A DNA stretch of 22,225 nt, from the IMG/VR virus record IMGVR_UViG_2693429779_000006; one strand, given 5' to 3'. Made by a program: the position numbers and the translations under genes. The notes beneath the pieces were generated by a model that searched no databases, was not told where the DNA came from, and was given only the letters and a program-made list of their open reading frames with translations. Within the stretch, counting starts at the first letter, position 1. Each line of letters opens with the position of its first letter. This document shows, one piece after another, positions 4,497 through 16,093 of the stretch. This DNA is from a virus. Taxonomy: Duplodnaviria; Heunggongvirae; Uroviricota; Caudoviricetes.

Positions 4497-8195
<3,699 letters not shown>

Positions 8196-9377: not shown

Positions 9378-9950
9378 TTGTTACCTCGAATATCTTCTTT
9401 CTTTATTTATTTAAAAACCTCGATTCGTATTTTTTTTAACAGGCTTGATTGGCAGGCTGCATCCGTCATCGTTGCTATGTTGTTATTTGCAGGCCAAATA
9501 GGCTATAACGCATATGATAAATGGAAAGAAAGTTCAGATGATGTTTTTAAGATGCGTGTAATCTTATTGAGCGAAATCAACAATAACCTTTTAGCTCTTG
9601 CTACTGGTGGCGATGAGTCTCAGGTGTTAGGCACATATGAAATATGTATTCCTCTTCCAACTGAAGATACAGAAGCTATTAAAAGAGTAGCAACTGCCGT
9701 TTCTTATTTGCATGATGATGTATATTATTCCCAATTAGAAAAATTAGCATCACTCCCAAAAAAAGAAGTAGATGCCATCGTAAAGAGTTATTATTCATTA
9801 TCGAGATTACGTACTCTTTCAACACAGCTTGCATACAATATTAAATACTCACCACCTAAAGTTAAATTATTGCGGGAAGAGTATTACAATCTCTATACCC
9901 TTTCATCTTCTCTTTCACAATATTTGTCTTATCACACGGAAAATCCCTAA
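9378..9950 (+). CDS. Opposite-strand insert (moron) in the tail operon: hypothetical protein with one predicted N-proximal TM helix
   Basis: A 190-codon open frame on the plus strand fills a 584-bp region that has no minus-strand ORF, in AT-rich DNA where long open frames are unlikely by chance. The track start is TTG; the first ATG is at 9477. TM candidate AASVIVAMLLFAGQIGYNAY. Confidence 0.4.
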   Translation: MLPRISSFFIYLKTSIRIFFNRLDWQAASVIVAMLLFAGQIGYNAYDKWKESSDDVFKMRVILLSEINNNLLALATGGDESQVLGTYEICIPLPTEDTEAIKRVATAVSYLHDDVYYSQLEKLASLPKKEVDAIVKSYYSLSRLRTLSTQLAYNIKYSPPKVKLLREEYYNLYTLSSSLSQYLSYHTENP

Positions 9951-9960
9951 CTGGGCTTTC

Positions 9961-12174
9961 TTATGTATTACGTTTTTGACTACTTCTCACAGCTTGAGAA
10001 ACACTATTGGCGTGTTTCTTAAGCATCTCATTAAATTTCTTGTCATCATCAGCTACATCACCCTGGATGATCAATGGTGCGTTAACGGTAATATCACCTG
10101 AAGTACTTCCACCTTCTTGTTTATCCAAGAATGCTGTTAATTTCTTATTCGCTTCAGGCTGCACCACTCTCTCGCCCTGCTTAAGTACAAATGATTTGTT
10201 GTCATAACTTGCTGGTAGTTCATCTACCCCGCCATGGAACTGACCAGCAGCAGCACCCTTTGCAGTACTAATAATCGACATACCAAGTGAAAGTACTTGT
10301 GCATAGTTTGCCAATGAAGCTGGCCAAGGGGTAGCGAGTGCTTGGGCCAATGCTGACTGAATTGAAAGTACTGTCTGTGCAATGCTTATGCTCTTACTTA
10401 GGGTAAATGCAGCTTGTGCAGCCCCACTACTTTCCCCAAACGCATCAACCATGCCCTGTGATAGTGACTGTGCAGTACTTGAGAAGATACTTAACTGATC
10501 CTGTGCATTCTGGTTACTGATTTGGATGGCCTGTGCATTGTACTTTGCCGTGATCTCAGCTTTACGTTTCTCATAGTCCTCATGGCCTTTCAGCAACAAC
10601 TCATTCTGCTGAAGTTCAGCATTCATAGCATCAGCGTTATCTTTCAACTTCTGATCGGTATCGTTATAGGCTAATGGATTACCACCATTGATACGCTGAT
10701 TCTGTTGCTGTGCCAGATACCCCTTCTGATTGTCATTGAGTAGACCGGAACCAATAAGAGCATTGGTATCTTTCAGACCCTGATTAGGATCTTGATAACC
10801 AACCATTGAATTCAGTAAATCAGTACGTTGTTTAGCACCATATGCAGTAGCGTTCTTTAGCATTTCATCAGGATTGATACCGAGTACTTGAGCACTATCG
10901 GTGATGGTTTTAAGAAGTGCCTTTTGTTGTCTGTCGAACTGCTGTAGACGTACCTGAAAACCATCTTCCCCAACTTGAGCAAGAGCAGCTTCCAGATTAC
11001 GTTGAGCCTGTAGGCGTTTTGCATCTGCCGCCTTTTGTGCCGCTTCTGCCTGTTTACGTTGTTGTTCTAACTTCTTCGCTGCATCTTCAGCTTCTTTTGC
11101 CTGATCAACCCATCCGCCAGTAGGAGCGGTAGCAACCGCAACATCGGACTTTAGGTTGTTTGCCAGTTCTTCTAAACGTGCCTTAGCCTGAGCGAACTCA
11201 TTACCCTTGTTGCCCTTATCATCCATGATGCCAGTATTGAGTGCTGCACCCTGGTAGTTTAATGCCCCTGCTGTACGTAATTTTTCCCAGATATCCAACA
11301 TATCCTGTAGAGAACCCTTGGAAGTTTTAATACGTTCATTCAGATCTTCAAACAAACCTGCCTCGTGAGGTTTTTGATTTGCAGCATCATAGACACTGTT
11401 CATGGCATTAACTAAAGGTGATAGGCCATCAGCAATAGTACCTTTAATGCTGGTAGTAAGTTTCCCAAGGTTTTTATCGAATTCAGCATATTTTTCAGCA
11501 GCATCATTAGTTACTTCAGCATTTTGTGACTGGATATAGGCTGTAGCTTGAGCCTCATTATTGAACTGCTGAAGAGTACTAATCATGTGGCTTGAGTCAC
11601 TGGCTAACGTTTCCATTACGTTAACTATTTCACTCTGTGATTTACCTGCATCACGCATGGCGTAAAAGGTGTGGATCACAGCCTGCATACCACCATCAGC
11701 CTGTTTTAAGTACTTGTTATAGTCCTGTAGGTTGAGTCCATATTCTTTAAGATCATCGGATACACCACCGCCAGCACGAAAAGCATCACCGAGCTTATCC
11801 AAGGTATCCTTGTTGAAATCACCAAACTTATCAATCTCAAGACCGAGGCCACTAAACGCCGCTGATAGCTGTTGTAACTGAACCACGGACAATCCGGTAC
11901 TCTTACTGATCTGGTTCATTTCACGCACATATTCACGTGATGATTCTACTAATGCTGCCAGGCCACCAATACCAATAGCCGCAGCACCCGCGATCCCGGT
12001 CATAGCAGTACCGAACCCGCCAGCCATACCAGTTATTCGGCCTGTGAACTCTTCAACAATGCCACCAGCAGTACTACCAAATTCCTCTAATGATTCAGTA
12101 CCAGACCTTAAAGCACGCTGTAAACCGGAAGAATCACCCGTAATATCTACACGTATTCTATTATTATTTGCCAT
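9961..12174 (-). CDS. Tail tape measure protein
   Basis: 737 aa, directly downstream of the G/GT chaperone pair. Gly/Ala-rich hydrophobic N-proximal segment, long Ala/Gln/Lys-rich helical regions, and a C-terminal region. Length implies a tail of roughly 110 nm at about 0.15 nm per residue. Confidence 0.8.
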   Translation of the reverse strand: MANNNRIRVDITGDSSGLQRALRSGTESLEEFGSTAGGIVEEFTGRITGMAGGFGTAMTGIAGAAAIGIGGLAALVESSREYVREMNQISKSTGLSVVQLQQLSAAFSGLGLEIDKFGDFNKDTLDKLGDAFRAGGGVSDDLKEYGLNLQDYNKYLKQADGGMQAVIHTFYAMRDAGKSQSEIVNVMETLASDSSHMISTLQQFNNEAQATAYIQSQNAEVTNDAAEKYAEFDKNLGKLTTSIKGTIADGLSPLVNAMNSVYDAANQKPHEAGLFEDLNERIKTSKGSLQDMLDIWEKLRTAGALNYQGAALNTGIMDDKGNKGNEFAQAKARLEELANNLKSDVAVATAPTGGWVDQAKEAEDAAKKLEQQRKQAEAAQKAADAKRLQAQRNLEAALAQVGEDGFQVRLQQFDRQQKALLKTITDSAQVLGINPDEMLKNATAYGAKQRTDLLNSMVGYQDPNQGLKDTNALIGSGLLNDNQKGYLAQQQNQRINGGNPLAYNDTDQKLKDNADAMNAELQQNELLLKGHEDYEKRKAEITAKYNAQAIQISNQNAQDQLSIFSSTAQSLSQGMVDAFGESSGAAQAAFTLSKSISIAQTVLSIQSALAQALATPWPASLANYAQVLSLGMSIISTAKGAAAGQFHGGVDELPASYDNKSFVLKQGERVVQPEANKKLTAFLDKQEGGSTSGDITVNAPLIIQGDVADDDKKFNEMLKKHANSVSQAVRSSQKRNT

Positions 12175-12526
12175 TCTTTTTCTTTCCTAATACCTGAGAT
12201 TTAATTAACTCCCCTATAGATTTAATATCATTGGATTGAGCCTCTTTAGTTTTTAATTTTCTTTCTTCAGCTTTCTCTGAAGTACTCTTAGTACTATCAC
12301 TAAGCACATCAAGAAAATCAAAATCCTGTACCTTGATACTTTTCCTTGCTTCTGGTGTTAGGTTGCCATTACTGATAGTGGTGTAGTAACACTGGTACGC
12401 ATGTTTCATCATTTCAATCTGCGTACCGGATGGTTCTATAAAAGTATCGTAGATCATAAGCATATTGAGTACATCAGGATCTAAACTAAAGTATTCTTCA
12501 GGTGATAAGCCTCTTTTGTTAACCAT
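12164..12526 (-). CDS. Tail assembly chaperone, T-like part, expressed as a G-T fusion by -1 frameshift
   Basis: The -1 frame is open from the slippery site at 12562..12568 straight into this ORF with no stop (linker reads V-R-G-D-I-E-L-K-Y-F-C-K then M-V-N-K-R...). Overlaps the tape measure start by 11 bp. Confidence 0.7.
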   Translation of the reverse strand: MVNKRGLSPEEYFSLDPDVLNMLMIYDTFIEPSGTQIEMMKHAYQCYYTTISNGNLTPEARKSIKVQDFDFLDVLSDSTKSTSEKAEERKLKTKEAQSNDIKSIGELIKSQVLGKKKNGK

Positions 12527-12558
12527 CTTACAAAAGTACTTTAATTCGATATCACCTC

Positions 12559-12870
12559 TTACTTTTTTTCTACTTCATCTACAGGTTTCGCAGTATTGAT
12601 TAAAGCAATAATTGCTGAGTAAATTTCATTCTGGATTACAAAATCAATAGAGTTAACATTAATTCGTCCATCAATATCTTCTTCTGCGAAGATAGGATCA
12701 CCATTTTCATCTTTTACACATAGGATTAGAGTTTTAGCCACATCAGTGCATTTCTGGAAATCCTGACCATTTGGACGATGAATAAAGATGATTTCACCCA
12801 TTACTTCATGTGGTTTTAATTCTGGTTGTAGTTTTTTCTTCAATTCGTTTAAATTCATTTTCATCTCCAA
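12559..12870 (-). CDS. Tail assembly chaperone, G-like
   Basis: Small acidic protein immediately upstream of the tape measure gene, ending in the slippery heptamer. The track start is TTG; the likely true start is an ATG at 12864 or 12858 (GGAG upstream). Confidence 0.7.
   Translation of the reverse strand: MEMKMNLNELKKKLQPELKPHEVMGEIIFIHRPNGQDFQKCTDVAKTLILCVKDENGDPIFAEEDIDGRINVNSIDFVIQNEIYSAIIALINTAKPVDEVEKK
12562..12568 (-). other. Programmed -1 ribosomal frameshift slippery heptamer A_AAA_AAG
   Basis: Minus-strand codons ...GTA GAA AAA AAG TAA. The heptamer sits in the zero frame immediately before the G stop codon, and the -1 frame continues into the downstream ORF. Confidence 0.7.
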
Positions 12871-12871
12871 T

Positions 12872-12903
12872 AAAAAAGGGAAAGTTGAGCACCTTCCCTT
12901 TAT
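12872..12903 (-). terminator. Candidate rho-independent terminator or attenuator after the major tail protein gene
   Basis: Minus-strand RNA AAAGGGAAG-GUGCUCAA-CUUUCCCUUU followed by a U-tract. Its position would let the tail tube gene be expressed more than the downstream genes. Confidence 0.45.
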
Positions 12904-12909
12904 TTATTA

Positions 12910-13383
12910 TTATTCGCCCGATTCTGGTTTTGGAGTAATCAGACCTGAATCAATTGCTTCACCATCAACTGCAAGGGTGAAAGTCTTAGTTACTACTTCA
13001 TCTTTATCACCACCGATAGTGGTACTTGAAACAAAGCAGGTATAAATTACAAAGAAACCTTCTTTTTTAGTTGCATCGGTAAAATAGCTTAGTTTTACCT
13101 GACAACGTTTCTGATCGTCTGCAAGTTGTTCTAAATTCTGATGTACTGCATTATCTGGTAAGTAGTTAACTGCAAGAGAAATGTCCGGGATTGACTTAGT
13201 ACCCAATAGCTTACGATCATAAGCATTATTGAATGTTTTTACGCTAATTACAGTACTTTCAAAGCCTGAAGTACTGAAGGTGTTTACCTCTGGTACTTCT
13301 ACAAAGTCAGTAGCAACTGTTTTACCAGCACTTGAACCTACTTCTACAGTAAGGTTAGCACCGGAAAAAATATCCATAGCCAT
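12910..13383 (-). CDS. Major tail (tube) protein, short form
   Basis: 157 aa immediately upstream of the G/GT chaperones. Shares DIFSG, NTF, VNYLPD, HQ.L and VVTK motifs in the same order with the N-terminus of the 883-aa protein. Confidence 0.6.
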   Translation of the reverse strand: MAMDIFSGANLTVEVGSSAGKTVATDFVEVPEVNTFSTSGFESTVISVKTFNNAYDRKLLGTKSIPDISLAVNYLPDNAVHQNLEQLADDQKRCQVKLSYFTDATKKEGFFVIYTCFVSSTTIGGDKDEVVTKTFTLAVDGEAIDSGLITPKPESGE

Positions 13384-13441: not shown

Positions 13442-16093
13442 TTATTTATTATTTAATAGCTGTTGTACTAAATCTTTTAGCTGATTAATTTCTTCTTGTT
13501 GGGCTTGAATAGCTCCCATCAAGTCCATCACTATTGGATTTAAATCAACACGTGGATGATCACGAGTGACAATCTCCCCTTCTATTTCAACTGTTTCTTC
13601 ATCATGCTTAATGTACTGCGGAGCAGTCAACTCAGCATCTTCGGCGATAACACCAAACCTAACCCTTTCTTGTTCATCATCCTTGTAGATAAACGTTACT
13701 AAATCTTGTGACATTATCCGATCTAATGCTTCAACTGGATTTGCTGGAGTTATGTCTCTTTTAAACTCACGACCTGATGTACCTTGAGCTTGCATTACTA
13801 ACCATCCAAACCATGTTGTACCGTTCCCGCCTCGTACTCTTAAAGTACCACCACCGTCTATCTGAAGCTGAGAGCGATTTGCCCCTGGGTATCTTTGCAT
13901 GTGCAATAAAGGGGAATATTTTTCACTATAGTTAATACCTGAGTCACCTGGCCCTGCATACATACCGTTAAAGGTGATGGTATTGGCATCTGTCGGTCCC
14001 GAAACAGCGGTATTAGTCATCCATCCTGATTGAACATCAGTTAGGATCGTTCCAGTCGGCCCTTTTAGCCCCCATAGTTTATCCTCTGCACCATTTTCAG
14101 AAATAAAAAGGGTGAGATCAGCCTGTCCAGTCTGTCCCATCGTTTTACCAACCCGAAAACCACCAGATATTTCAGTTGATGTACCAATGTTGCATATCGA
14201 ACGAATACGCCCTCCAGTTACATAACTACCAATTGCCGTAGAGGAAGGGGAAGAAGCAATAACATCCCATTGAGGACTAACTGAAGTACGACTACTCAGC
14301 AAGTTTTCAACCCAGCGTTTGGTAGTCGCGTCAGAATCAGAGACAGGATCTCCTGCTAAAGAAGTTGCACCCGTAGGACGAATCGCAGGCCATAACTCAG
14401 CCTGAGTCTTAACACCAGTACCGCCCTGCGGAATTGCTAATGCTTTCCAGCCAGTGAAAGCACCCGCAATATATGTAGCTGAACCCCATTGCCCTCCATC
14501 ATAAACCACTAATGCAGCGGAAGAATCAGCGGATTTAATAGTTGTTAAATTACTACCTTGATTAAAGCGATCCACCTGAAAGTTTAGGCGAGCACTCAAA
14601 GCATCTGTAGCCCCTGTCCCCCCCTGACCTATACCTAAAGCAATCCATCCAGTACCAGTACTTGCACCCCATGCCCCGTTATCCTGAATTCGGATACGGT
14701 TAGTCAGGTCATTACTCATCAGATCGGTGTACGTAGCACCCTGAGTCAAACGGTTCACCTGTAGGTTAGTACGTGCTGTAGAGAGACTGGATAGATCAGA
14801 AAGGTTACTCGCTTTCTTCATGGAAGCGGAATCAAGGGAAGTAATACTGTCAGCTAAAGCCGTTACCTCTGCATCTACTTCATCCATTGAGTAAACAGCA
14901 AGGTTAATACGTGCTTCTTCCACGTCCCCCAGATCACTTAGATTACCTGCTATCGTAAGCTGGGCATCATCTGTAACCTTCCCTAAGCCAACATCAGTAC
15001 TGGTAAGTACTACATCCTCACTGAGTACATGACCGTTGACCATACGTGTATCAGGTACTGAACCTGTATCTTCACTACTCAGTACTACATTTTCACTAAG
15101 TACATGACCGTTCACTGTACGCGTGTCAGGTACTGAACCTGTATCTTCACTACTCAGTACTATATCTTCACTGAGTACATGACCATTAACTGTCCGTGTA
15201 TCTGGTACAGAGCCGGTATCAGTACTGGTAAGTACTACATCCTCACTTAGAGGCTTACCATTCACAGTACGTGTATCAGGTACTGAACCTGTATCTTCAC
15301 TGTTCAGTACTAAATTGGCCGTGAGTGCATGGCCGTTGATGGTACGTGTAAGGGGTACGTATCGCCCGTCCATCTGTGTAGCGGTATATATGCGTGTCCA
15401 GGCGGTTGTAGCGTTCTTTGCATAGATACTTAGAGTACCCGTCTTTGTCATCGCAAGAGAACTTACAGTAGTGCCATCTACAAGCCCTACTCCCATCAGA
15501 TCCGCCCCGGCAGGATTGCCTGCTTGAGATGATGGTACTTTGATGAAGCTGTTACCCGTAGGTACTGATGGTGAGTACTGAGGTACATCCGTAGTGTTCG
15601 AACCTAAACCGTAGTCCCCCTGATAGATTGGCGATAGTGCGTTAATGGTCATTGCACGTGCGATCACATCATGTGGGGCAAAACTGTATGCCTTGGTTAC
15701 TACTGAACCTTTATCACCGTCCAACTTATAAGAGGTGATATAACCATTCACCATCGCATAAGTAATGGTATTTTCATCCTTATTCATCTGGTACTGAATG
15801 ATGATCTGGAAAAGCTGCTGAGACTTAGCGGCATTATCCAAGAATTGATGTGTAGGATCATCAGGTAGGTAGTTAACTACAATATCAAATGGTGCTACTG
15901 ATTTATCAGATAGTAGTACTGTCCTGTAATCACTATCATACGTTTCAAAATTATTTGCTTCTGAATTTATTGTTAAGGTTGGAAAAGTATTAATCTGTTT
16001 AATTACTACATTGCCTGCTCCCTGTGGTGTTCTGTTACCAATATCAGCATTATACTGTACTGATAATTCTCTTCCTGAGAAAATATCACTCAT
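13442..16093 (-). CDS. Chimeric tail protein: tail-tube-like N-domain, tandem tail-fibre repeats and a C-terminal S74-type intramolecular chaperone domain
   Basis: aa 1-150 are paralogous to the 157-aa major tail protein. aa 249-368 hold five 25-aa repeats (TRTVNGHVLSEDVVLSSEDTGSVPD). The C-terminus reads FKRDITP...ALDRIMSQDLVTFIYKDD...RFGVIAEDAELTAP, resembling the self-cleaving chaperone domain of tail fibres and tailspikes, and ends in a coiled coil. Confidence 0.65.
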   Translation of the reverse strand: MSDIFSGRELSVQYNADIGNRTPQGAGNVVIKQINTFPTLTINSEANNFETYDSDYRTVLLSDKSVAPFDIVVNYLPDDPTHQFLDNAAKSQQLFQIIIQYQMNKDENTITYAMVNGYITSYKLDGDKGSVVTKAYSFAPHDVIARAMTINALSPIYQGDYGLGSNTTDVPQYSPSVPTGNSFIKVPSSQAGNPAGADLMGVGLVDGTTVSSLAMTKTGTLSIYAKNATTAWTRIYTATQMDGRYVPLTRTINGHALTANLVLNSEDTGSVPDTRTVNGKPLSEDVVLTSTDTGSVPDTRTVNGHVLSEDIVLSSEDTGSVPDTRTVNGHVLSENVVLSSEDTGSVPDTRMVNGHVLSEDVVLTSTDVGLGKVTDDAQLTIAGNLSDLGDVEEARINLAVYSMDEVDAEVTALADSITSLDSASMKKASNLSDLSSLSTARTNLQVNRLTQGATYTDLMSNDLTNRIRIQDNGAWGASTGTGWIALGIGQGGTGATDALSARLNFQVDRFNQGSNLTTIKSADSSAALVVYDGGQWGSATYIAGAFTGWKALAIPQGGTGVKTQAELWPAIRPTGATSLAGDPVSDSDATTKRWVENLLSSRTSVSPQWDVIASSPSSTAIGSYVTGGRIRSICNIGTSTEISGGFRVGKTMGQTGQADLTLFISENGAEDKLWGLKGPTGTILTDVQSGWMTNTAVSGPTDANTITFNGMYAGPGDSGINYSEKYSPLLHMQRYPGANRSQLQIDGGGTLRVRGGNGTTWFGWLVMQAQGTSGREFKRDITPANPVEALDRIMSQDLVTFIYKDDEQERVRFGVIAEDAELTAPQYIKHDEETVEIEGEIVTRDHPRVDLNPIVMDLMGAIQAQQEEINQLKDLVQQLLNNK
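14990..15349 (-). repeat. Tandem 75-bp coding repeats (about 5 copies) inside the 883-aa gene
   Basis: Near-identical DNA units are visible directly, for example ...tcactgagtacatgaccgtt...acgtgtatcaggtactgaacctgtatcttcactactcagtact..., each encoding one 25-aa repeat. Confidence 0.85.

What the first reader, a model, noticed from the sequence alone, without database searches (positions are those of the whole stretch)
12526..12570. G/GT tail chaperone frameshift uses a dnaX-type A_AAA_AAG slippery site directly before the G stop codon
The G-like ORF ends ...GAA AAA AAG TAA. The heptamer A_AAA_AAG (12562..12568) is in the zero frame, and the -1 frame reads V-R-G-D-I-E-L-K-Y-F-C-K and then enters the 120-aa ORF with no intervening stop. 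This is the conserved G/GT chaperone strategy of long-tailed phages. Here the slip site differs from lambda's G_GGA_AAG and lies on the last two sense codons, so the stop codon may act as the pause element.
Basis: partly seen in the sequence, partly recalled or inferred. Interest (0 to 1): 0.5.

Follow-up and report, generated by a model that had tools for sequence, protein, structure and literature searches.

The report
Tail chaperone G/GT frameshift site
A Shigella sonnei prophage has the usual long-tailed-phage trick of making two tail-assembly chaperones from one message by a backward ribosome slip, here on A_AAA_AAG placed directly against the stop codon; this is an unannotated but ordinary example of a well-known mechanism.

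The parts
12559..12858 (-). G-like tail assembly chaperone gene (99 codons plus TAA). The product of standard translation ends ...DEVEKK.
12562..12568 (-). Slippery heptamer A_AAA_AAG, covering the last base of Glu97 and the codons Lys98 and Lys99 of G.
   Evidence: Kept as A_AAA_AAG (23) or A_AAA_AAA (6) in 29 distinct related sequences.
12559..12561 (-). Zero-frame stop TAA of G, directly 3' of the heptamer. In the -1 frame it overlaps codons GTA and AGA.
   Evidence: TAA is invariant in all 38 loci, including the wobble A of the -1-frame Val/Ile codon.
12575..12577 (-). TGA that closes the -1 (T) frame upstream and limits the possible shift window to 12574..12562.
   Evidence: In about half of the relatives the equivalent TGA lies directly against the heptamer.
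12527..12562 (-). Twelve-codon linker read only after the shift (VRGDIELKYFCK). Base 12562 is read twice.
   Evidence: The family pattern is [VI][RK]xDxxLx[YH][FY][CL]K, with synonymous changes in the Leu, Phe, Cys and Lys codons. The T frame is stop-free in 28 of 28 sequences, whereas the zero frame has stops in 18 of 28 and the +1 frame in 26 of 28.
12164..12526 (-). T-like ORF (120 codons plus stop). It is the C-terminal part of the predicted 231-aa GT fusion and overlaps the tape measure start at 12174.
   Evidence: No Pfam or PHROG family. No Shine-Dalgarno motif in front of ATG 12526. A small family: 18 cluster representatives among 1.8 billion proteins.
12550..12557 (-). 5' arm (AGGUGAUA) of a predicted stem that starts 4-5 nt after the heptamer. 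It also resembles a Shine-Dalgarno sequence. Its function is not established.
   Evidence: No covariation. AGGTGAT occurs 8 times in the window, mostly inside genes.
12500..12507 (-). 3' arm (UAUCACCU) of the same predicted stem, within the T codons for Leu-Ser-Pro.
12910..13383 (-). Tail tube protein gene directly upstream (context).
   Evidence: PF08813 Phage_tail_3, E 2.8e-8, above the cut-off. phrog_158 major tail protein, E 5.8e-19.
9961..12174 (-). Tape measure protein gene directly downstream (context).
   Evidence: phrog_13674 tail length tape measure protein, E 5.4e-86.

Best explanation
This is the G/GT tail assembly chaperone pair of a siphovirus-type prophage of Shigella sonnei, expressed by programmed -1 ribosomal frameshifting.

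Most ribosomes translate the 99-aa G protein and terminate at UAA. A minority slip back one base while tRNA-Lys occupies AAA and AAG, the last two sense codons, and re-pair on AAA AAA. They then read GUA and go on to make a 231-aa GT fusion: G, a 12-residue linker, and the 120-aa T segment.

By analogy with phage lambda, the G part binds the tape measure protein and the T part recruits the tail tube protein, and neither ends up in the virion.

Shown here: the sequence anatomy, the chaperone fold of G, the gene context, and the conservation of the heptamer, stop and open -1 frame.

Inferred: that the shift happens at all, its efficiency, and the roles of G and T.

The heptamer is probably the main determinant. 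The abutting stop codon may add to it, because a slowly decoded A site gives P-site tRNA-Lys on AAG time to slip. A downstream stem may add a little in this clade.
For: Anatomy.

Context: tube gene, G, T, tape measure, distal tail protein.

Conservation:
- All 38 loci that carry the junction have GAAAAAAA[G/A]TAA, with T identity from 100% down to 37%.
- 39 of 40 G-family proteins end in EKK. The one exception is an insertion-sequence disruption.
- In about half of the loci a -1-frame TGA abuts the heptamer, so no other shift point exists.

Linker: it is conserved as protein with synonymous codon changes, it is stop-free only in the T frame, and it has no conserved start codon.

No Shine-Dalgarno motif precedes ATG 12526.

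Hosts are Enterobacteriaceae. In E. coli a single tRNA-Lys reads AAA and AAG, and A_AAA_AAG was the most shift-prone heptamer tested there (PMC5009743).

A distant relative, Escherichia phage DCP80, has the same gene order with a -1-frame downstream ORF and a different canonical heptamer, T_TTA_AAG, about 30 nt before the stop.
Against: No protein evidence is available.

No stimulatory element is demonstrated. There is no upstream Shine-Dalgarno-like sequence. The downstream stem lacks covariation and is absent in five divergent lineages.

The T segment matches no known family, so its role rests on position alone.

The Met at the annotated T start is invariant, so some independent initiation cannot be excluded.

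Insertion of one A by RNA polymerase in the A7 run would give the identical protein.
Confidence: 0.85

Rival explanations
1. Transcriptional slippage. RNA polymerase adds one A in the A7 run (A8 in some relatives). A fraction of mRNAs then encode G and T in one frame, giving the same ...EKKVRGD... fusion without any ribosomal slip.
For: The site is a homopolymer run of 7 A in the window and 8 A in 6 of 29 distinct relatives. The protein product would be indistinguishable. Runs of A with n > 7 are listed as used for programmed transcriptional realignment (PMC3711429).
Against: The run in the window and in 23 of 29 relatives is only A7, below that threshold. It ends in G, which is the hallmark of the ribosomal site in enterobacteria (PMC5009743). 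No lineage has lengthened the run beyond 8. The run always sits in the exact X_XXY_YYZ register, which polymerase slippage does not require.
Confidence: 0.06
2. No fusion. T is made as a separate 120-aa protein from ATG 12526, for example by reinitiation of ribosomes that have just terminated at the G stop 33 nt upstream. The A-run is incidental.
For: Met13 of the linker-plus-T alignment is invariant. Gene callers start the protein there in nearly all relatives. A Shine-Dalgarno-like AGGTGAT lies between the stop and the ATG.
Against: That AGGTGAT lies 24 nt from the ATG. It is lost in several relatives (AAGTGAT, AACCGAT), and the motif is common inside genes of this window. Nothing purine-rich directly precedes the ATG. 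The 12 codons upstream of the ATG are conserved as protein in the T frame and are stop-free in 28 of 28 sequences, which is unexplained if they are untranslated. The heptamer and its register are invariant.
Confidence: 0.06
3. DNA-level phase variation. Replication slippage in the A-run switches the prophage between separate G and T genes and a fused GT gene.
For: Homopolymer runs are prone to indels. One related locus (L001) has a shorter run (A6) that fuses G and T in frame.
Against: L001 is a long-read assembly whose neighbouring genes are also broken by frameshifts, so its run length is most likely a homopolymer error. None of the other 38 loci shows a length variant other than A7G or A8, both of which keep the two-frame arrangement.
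Confidence: 0.02

Closest known systems
Phage lambda G/GT and the conserved tail assembly chaperone frameshift of long-tailed phages (Levin et al. 1993; Xu, Hendrix and Duda 2004, 2013, 2014, as cited in PMC5009743)
   Same: There are two small ORFs between the major tail gene and the tape measure gene. The second ORF is in the -1 frame without its own ribosome-binding site. [quoted passage not shown] The upstream protein has the chaperone fold.
   Different: The heptamer is A_AAA_AAG rather than lambda's G_GGA_AAG (my own knowledge, consistent). It lies on the last two sense codons, 0 nt from the stop. Reported average distances are 26 nt (SEA-PHAGES set) and 36 nt (Xu set) (PMC10885494). The T segment has no detectable similarity to known T segments.
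Paenibacillus larvae phage tail assembly genes with proposed AAAAAAG slip site (PMC6003738)
   Same: The same heptamer is proposed for the same gene pair.
   Different: The phages and hosts are unrelated (Firmicutes). That paper identified the site only tentatively and does not give its distance to the stop.
E. coli dnaX -1 frameshift cassette
   Same: The heptamer A_AAA_AAG is identical, it is read by the single enterobacterial tRNA-Lys, and the shift is -1.
   Different: dnaX has a Shine-Dalgarno-like stimulator about 10 nt upstream and a strong hairpin downstream (PMC3711429). Here the upstream element is absent and the downstream stem is unsupported. In dnaX the shifted frame stops almost at once and gives a shorter product, whereas here it extends the protein by 132 residues.
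IS3-family transposase orfA/orfB frameshift on A_AAA_AAG
   Same: A_AAA_AAG-type motif is used to fuse two overlapping ORFs at low efficiency (PMC5009743; PMC7556043).
   Different: The biology differs (transposase). IS elements usually carry defined downstream structures. Incidentally, one relative (L040) has an IS3-family element inserted into this very A-run.
Escherichia phage DCP80 (PQ671644), the nearest deposited phage
   Same: It has the same module order (tube, G-like, T-like in the -1 frame, tape measure). Its T segment is 36% identical and its portal 31.5% identical.
   Different: Its candidate slip site is T_TTA_AAG, about 30 nt before the G stop, and its G does not end in EKK. Both of its genes are annotated as hypothetical proteins.

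Membership tests
G/GT tail assembly chaperone -1 frameshift (lambda type) | Two adjacent small ORFs lie between the major tail (tube) gene and the tape measure gene. | tested here: met
   Tube gene 12910-13383 (PF08813 above cut-off). Tape measure 9961-12174 (phrog_13674, E 5e-86). G and T lie between them.
G/GT tail assembly chaperone -1 frameshift (lambda type) | The upstream ORF encodes a tail assembly chaperone. | tested here: met
G/GT tail assembly chaperone -1 frameshift (lambda type) | The downstream ORF is in the -1 frame, open from the slip site, and has no ribosome-binding site of its own. | tested here: met
   No GGAG, GAGG or AGGA within 15 nt upstream of ATG 12526 (read).
G/GT tail assembly chaperone -1 frameshift (lambda type) | A canonical X_XXY_YYZ heptamer lies in the zero frame inside the overlap. 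| tested here: met
   A_AAA_AAG at 12568..12562. It is the only in-frame copy among 23 ORFs.
G/GT tail assembly chaperone -1 frameshift (lambda type) | The arrangement is conserved in relatives while the surrounding sequence diverges. | tested here: met
   38 of 38 loci, 29 distinct sequences, T identity down to 37%.
G/GT tail assembly chaperone -1 frameshift (lambda type) | A GT fusion protein is made at a low fixed ratio and is needed for tail assembly. | not testable with these tools
   This needs proteomics, a reporter assay or genetics.
G/GT tail assembly chaperone -1 frameshift (lambda type) | The T segment binds the major tail protein and the G segment binds the tape measure. | not testable with these tools
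   T matches no Pfam or PHROG family. Its role is inferred from position only.
dnaX-type frameshift cassette | A_AAA_AAG heptamer. | tested here: met
dnaX-type frameshift cassette | A Shine-Dalgarno-like stimulator about 10 nt upstream of the heptamer. | tested here: not met
   The upstream 20 nt, AACCUGUAGAUGAAGUAG, contain no GGAG, GAGG or AGGA. The family consensus is GGAUGAAnUUG, which is set by the Asp-Glu codons.
dnaX-type frameshift cassette | A stable downstream stem-loop at 5-9 nt that is needed for high efficiency. | tested here: inconclusive
   An 8-bp stem, AGGUGAUA/UAUCACCU, is predicted 4-5 nt downstream. Its z-score is -2.1 against dinucleotide shuffles and -1.8 against synonymous recoding. 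Covariation is not above the slid controls, and the stem is lost in L002, L019, L034, L036 and L037.
Shifty-stop (slow A-site) single-tRNA slippage | A stop codon lies in the A site directly 3' of a codon whose tRNA can re-pair at -1 (A_AAG). | tested here: met
   AAG UAA, with A 5' of AAG. TAA is invariant in 38 loci.
Shifty-stop (slow A-site) single-tRNA slippage | Shift efficiency depends on release factor activity or on stop codon identity. | not testable with these tools
   This needs a reporter with the stop replaced by a sense codon, or release factor titration.
Programmed transcriptional slippage | A homopolymer run long enough for RNA polymerase realignment (A run with n > 7, per PMC3711429). 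| tested here: not met
   The window has A7 followed by G. 6 of 29 relatives have A8.

The most novel reading that the evidence does not exclude
In this family the frameshift cassette is reduced to the heptamer plus the abutting UAA, with no RNA structure. The G:GT ratio would then be set by competition between release-factor-mediated termination and -1 slippage of P-site tRNA-Lys on A_AAG. That would make tail chaperone stoichiometry sensitive to the host's release factor and translation state. The invariant position of the stop, and the -1-frame TGA that abuts the heptamer in half of the family, would be adaptations to this minimal design.
Probability: 0.25. Interest if true: 0.35.

Novelty: new member of a known kind. 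Interest (0 to 1): 0.2.

Why it matters
Both genes are labelled 'hypothetical protein' in hundreds of Shigella sonnei assemblies, and also in the nearest deposited phage. The result therefore improves annotation: a tail assembly chaperone and a 231-aa frameshift product should be added.

It also offers a compact natural cassette, a heptamer directly against a stop with a shift window as short as the heptamer itself. This could be used to measure how much a 3' stop codon contributes to -1 frameshifting on A_AAA_AAG in enterobacteria.

It does not change what is known about phage tail assembly or recoding.

Tried and rejected
1. DNA searches (megablast) found nothing in either the phage collection or the complete E. 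coli genomes. Relatives had to be found through proteins.

2. A conserved stimulatory hairpin is not supported.
- The RNAalifold consensus is weak, -4.4 kcal/mol.
- Counting pairs for the stem predicted in the window gave no excess of compensatory changes over slid controls, on 18 and on 28 sequences.
- Only one clear U-A to C-G double change was seen, in L025.
- I therefore do not claim the stem as a functional element.

3. The Shine-Dalgarno-like AGGTGAT after the stop is not treated as a signal. It is not conserved, it lies 24 nt from the ATG, and the motif is common inside genes here.

4. Rfam has no match for any frameshift element.

5. Codon-level invariance of GAA and AAA at Glu97 and Lys98 is not, on its own, stronger than at other invariant Glu and Lys codons of G. 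I do not use it as evidence.

6. A profile search of G against PDB sequences found nothing. Only the fold comparison identified G.

It was repeated with database homologues.

8. The apparent exception P0038, which ends in EKM, turned out to be an insertion-sequence disruption.

9. The Xu et al. 2004 paper is not held in the library. My comparison with its table of slip sites therefore rests on secondary sources.

Full report
**What is in the sequence**

All genes in this part of the window run on the minus strand. Reading that strand shows a small gene that ends ...GAT GAA GTA GAA AAA AAG TAA. The heptamer A_AAA_AAG lies at 12568..12562 in the X_XXY_YYZ register of the zero frame, and the stop lies at 12561..12559.

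Translation from 12562 in the -1 frame gives VRGDIELKYFCK, followed by MVNKRG..., and runs to the stop at 12166..12164.

The -1 frame is closed by TGA at 12577..12575. A shift that joins the two ORFs must therefore occur within 13 nt.

The upstream gene most likely starts at ATG 12858, with GGAG six nt upstream. That gives 99 aa, the length found throughout the family.

The string AAAAAAG is not enriched in the window (9 against 7.3 expected). However, this is the only copy in the shift-competent frame among 23 minus-strand ORFs, and it sits 0 nt from its gene's stop.

**Context and identity**

The gene order is terminase, portal, protease-capsid, an 883-aa tube-fibre protein, tail tube (12910-13383; PF08813 above its cut-off), the 99-aa gene, the 120-aa ORF, tape measure (9961-12174; phrog_13674, E 5e-86) and distal tail protein.

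The 99-aa protein gives only weak sequence hits to chaperone families. Pfam Phage_TAC_13 scores 24 bits against a cut-off of 28.8 and is matched by 17 of 18 relatives. phrog_344 gives E 1e-5.

The 120-aa ORF matches no Pfam or PHROG family. It has only 18 cluster representatives among 1.8 billion proteins.

Exact-sequence look-up places the window in a prophage of Shigella sonnei that is present on hundreds of contigs. Both proteins are labelled hypothetical there.

**Comparative evidence**

Protein-guided searches recovered 19 viral contigs, 5 genomes (Scandinavium, Buttiauxella, Pluralibacter, Pseudescherichia, Phytobacter), 13 metagenome contigs and 2 further contigs.

- Every one of the 38 loci that includes the junction carries GAAAAAAA[G/A]TAA in the same register. 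These give 29 distinct 126-nt sequences: 23 with A_AAA_AAG and 6 with A_AAA_AAA. T identity ranges from 100% down to 37%.
- In about half of the loci the codon before the heptamer creates a -1-frame TGA directly against it. The heptamer is then the only place where a shift can work.
- 39 of 40 G-family proteins end in EKK. The exception, P0038 (EKM), is a contig in which an IS3-family element interrupts the A-run. An intact copy of the junction follows the element.
- The 12 codons between the heptamer and the ATG follow the pattern [VI][RK]xDxxLx[YH][FY][CL]K, with synonymous changes in the Leu, Phe, Cys and Lys codons. They contain no stop in the T frame in 28 of 28 sequences, against stops in 18 of 28 in the zero frame and 26 of 28 in the +1 frame. 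They contain no conserved start codon.

This is what is expected if the linker is translated after a shift. It is hard to explain otherwise.

A distant relative, Escherichia phage DCP80, has the same module. Its downstream ORF is also in the -1 frame, but its candidate heptamer is T_TTA_AAG, about 30 nt before the stop.

**Stimulatory elements**

*Upstream.* The 20 nt before the heptamer contain no GGAG, GAGG or AGGA. The Shine-Dalgarno-like stimulator of dnaX is therefore absent.

*Downstream.* An 8-bp stem, AGGUGAUA (12557..12550) with UAUCACCU (12507..12500), begins 4-5 nt after the heptamer and encloses a second hairpin around the ATG. For the window, the fold is somewhat more stable than dinucleotide shuffles (z -2.1) and than synonymous recodings (z -1.8). 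The family mean against synonymous recodings is -1.24.

Both arms lie in conserved codons (Arg-Gly-Asp and Leu-Ser-Pro). Compensatory changes do not exceed the slid controls, and the RNAalifold consensus is weak. The stem is absent in L002, L019, L034, L036 and L037, which all keep the heptamer and the stop. I regard the stem as possible in this clade but not established.

The 5' arm also resembles a Shine-Dalgarno sequence. It is not conserved, and the motif is frequent inside genes here.

Rfam has no matching element.

*The stop codon.* TAA is invariant, including the wobble A of the overlapping -1-frame Val/Ile codon, while neighbouring wobble positions vary. Slow A-site decoding is a known promoter of P-site slippage (PMC5009743). 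Only an experiment can show this.

**Mechanism proposed**

Standard translation yields G (99 aa). A minority of ribosomes shift -1 on A_AAA_AAG. This could happen by tandem slippage of the two tRNA-Lys, or by P-site slippage of tRNA-Lys on A_AAG while UAA waits in the A site. Either way the ribosome then reads GUA and produces a 231-aa GT protein.

In enterobacteria a single tRNA-Lys reads both AAA and AAG, and A_AAA_AAG was the most shift-prone heptamer tested in E. coli (PMC5009743). This matches the host range found here.

The roles of G and T are inferred from phage lambda (PMC5009743).

**Rivals**

- *Transcriptional slippage* would give the same protein. However, the run is A7 followed by G in most members, below the length cited for polymerase realignment, and its fixed codon register is not needed for that mechanism.
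- *Independent initiation at ATG 12526* is not excluded as a side route. It does not explain the conserved linker or the heptamer.
- *DNA-level run-length variation* is seen only in one error-prone long-read assembly, L001.

**Comparison with what is known, and verdict**

The G/GT frameshift is conserved across long-tailed phages (Xu et al. 2004, cited in PMC5009743 and PMC10885494). AAAAAAG has already been proposed as the slip site in tail assembly genes of Paenibacillus larvae phages (PMC6003738). An archaeal virus uses A_AAA_AAC for the same purpose.

What is slightly unusual here is the zero distance between heptamer and stop, against reported averages of 26-36 nt (PMC10885494), and its strict conservation.

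This is a new, unannotated member of a known kind. It is useful for annotation and as a compact test case for the effect of a 3' stop codon, but it is not surprising.

Noticed in passing
window 13442-16093 (-): An 883-aa protein. Its first ~140 residues are a paralogue of the 157-aa tail tube protein (31% identity, E 3e-19). The rest matches tail fibre families and ends in a Peptidase_S74 intramolecular chaperone domain. It is a tube-domain/fibre fusion encoded directly upstream of the ordinary tube gene.
   Followed up: partly
window 12875-12901 (-): A terminator-like hairpin (AAAGGGAAGG...CTTTCCCTTT followed by TTTTATT) lies between the tail tube gene and G. Similar hairpins are visible at the same place in L001 and L002. 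It might lower expression of the chaperone and tape measure genes relative to the tube protein.
   Followed up: partly
L040 1790-3100: In one metagenome relative an IS3-family element (HTH_Tnp_1 plus rve ORFs) is inserted into the A-run of the slip site, so G ends in EKM. About 65 nt of the G 3' end is repeated after the element, followed by an intact GAAAAAAAGTAAG junction. This is either an assembly chimera of two populations or a real duplication.
   Followed up: partly
L001 6070-6130: A long-read assembly (tig00000001, 1.37 Mb) has the run as A6, which fuses G and T in frame. A gene caller therefore produced the read-through protein P0002. Neighbouring phage genes in this contig are also fragmented, so this is probably a homopolymer error rather than a natural fusion.
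   Followed up: partly
window, whole: AGGTGAT, a strong Shine-Dalgarno-like heptamer, occurs 8 times against 3.2 expected, with none of 100 shuffles reaching 8. Most copies lie inside coding sequence, probably reflecting Gly-Asp (GGT GAT) codon pairs.
   Followed up: no
window 4503-4509 (-): A canonical heptamer, G_GGT_TTA, lies in the zero frame 3 nt before the stop of the 1100-aa ORF (4497-7799). I did not examine whether the -1 frame continues into a downstream ORF.
   Followed up: no
L041 (PQ671644.1 10639-17908): Escherichia phage DCP80 is filed under Straboviridae/Gaprivervirus with a 141-kb record. It nevertheless carries a siphovirus-like tube, chaperone and tape measure module related to this prophage, all annotated as hypothetical proteins. 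A candidate T_TTA_AAG -1 slip site lies at about L041 3456-3462.
   Followed up: partly
window, whole; 9378-9950 (+): The window is 39% G+C, low for a prophage of Shigella/Escherichia (the host value of about 51% is from my own knowledge). A 190-aa plus-strand ORF sits alone against the direction of the tail genes, between the distal tail protein gene and the tape measure gene.
   Followed up: no
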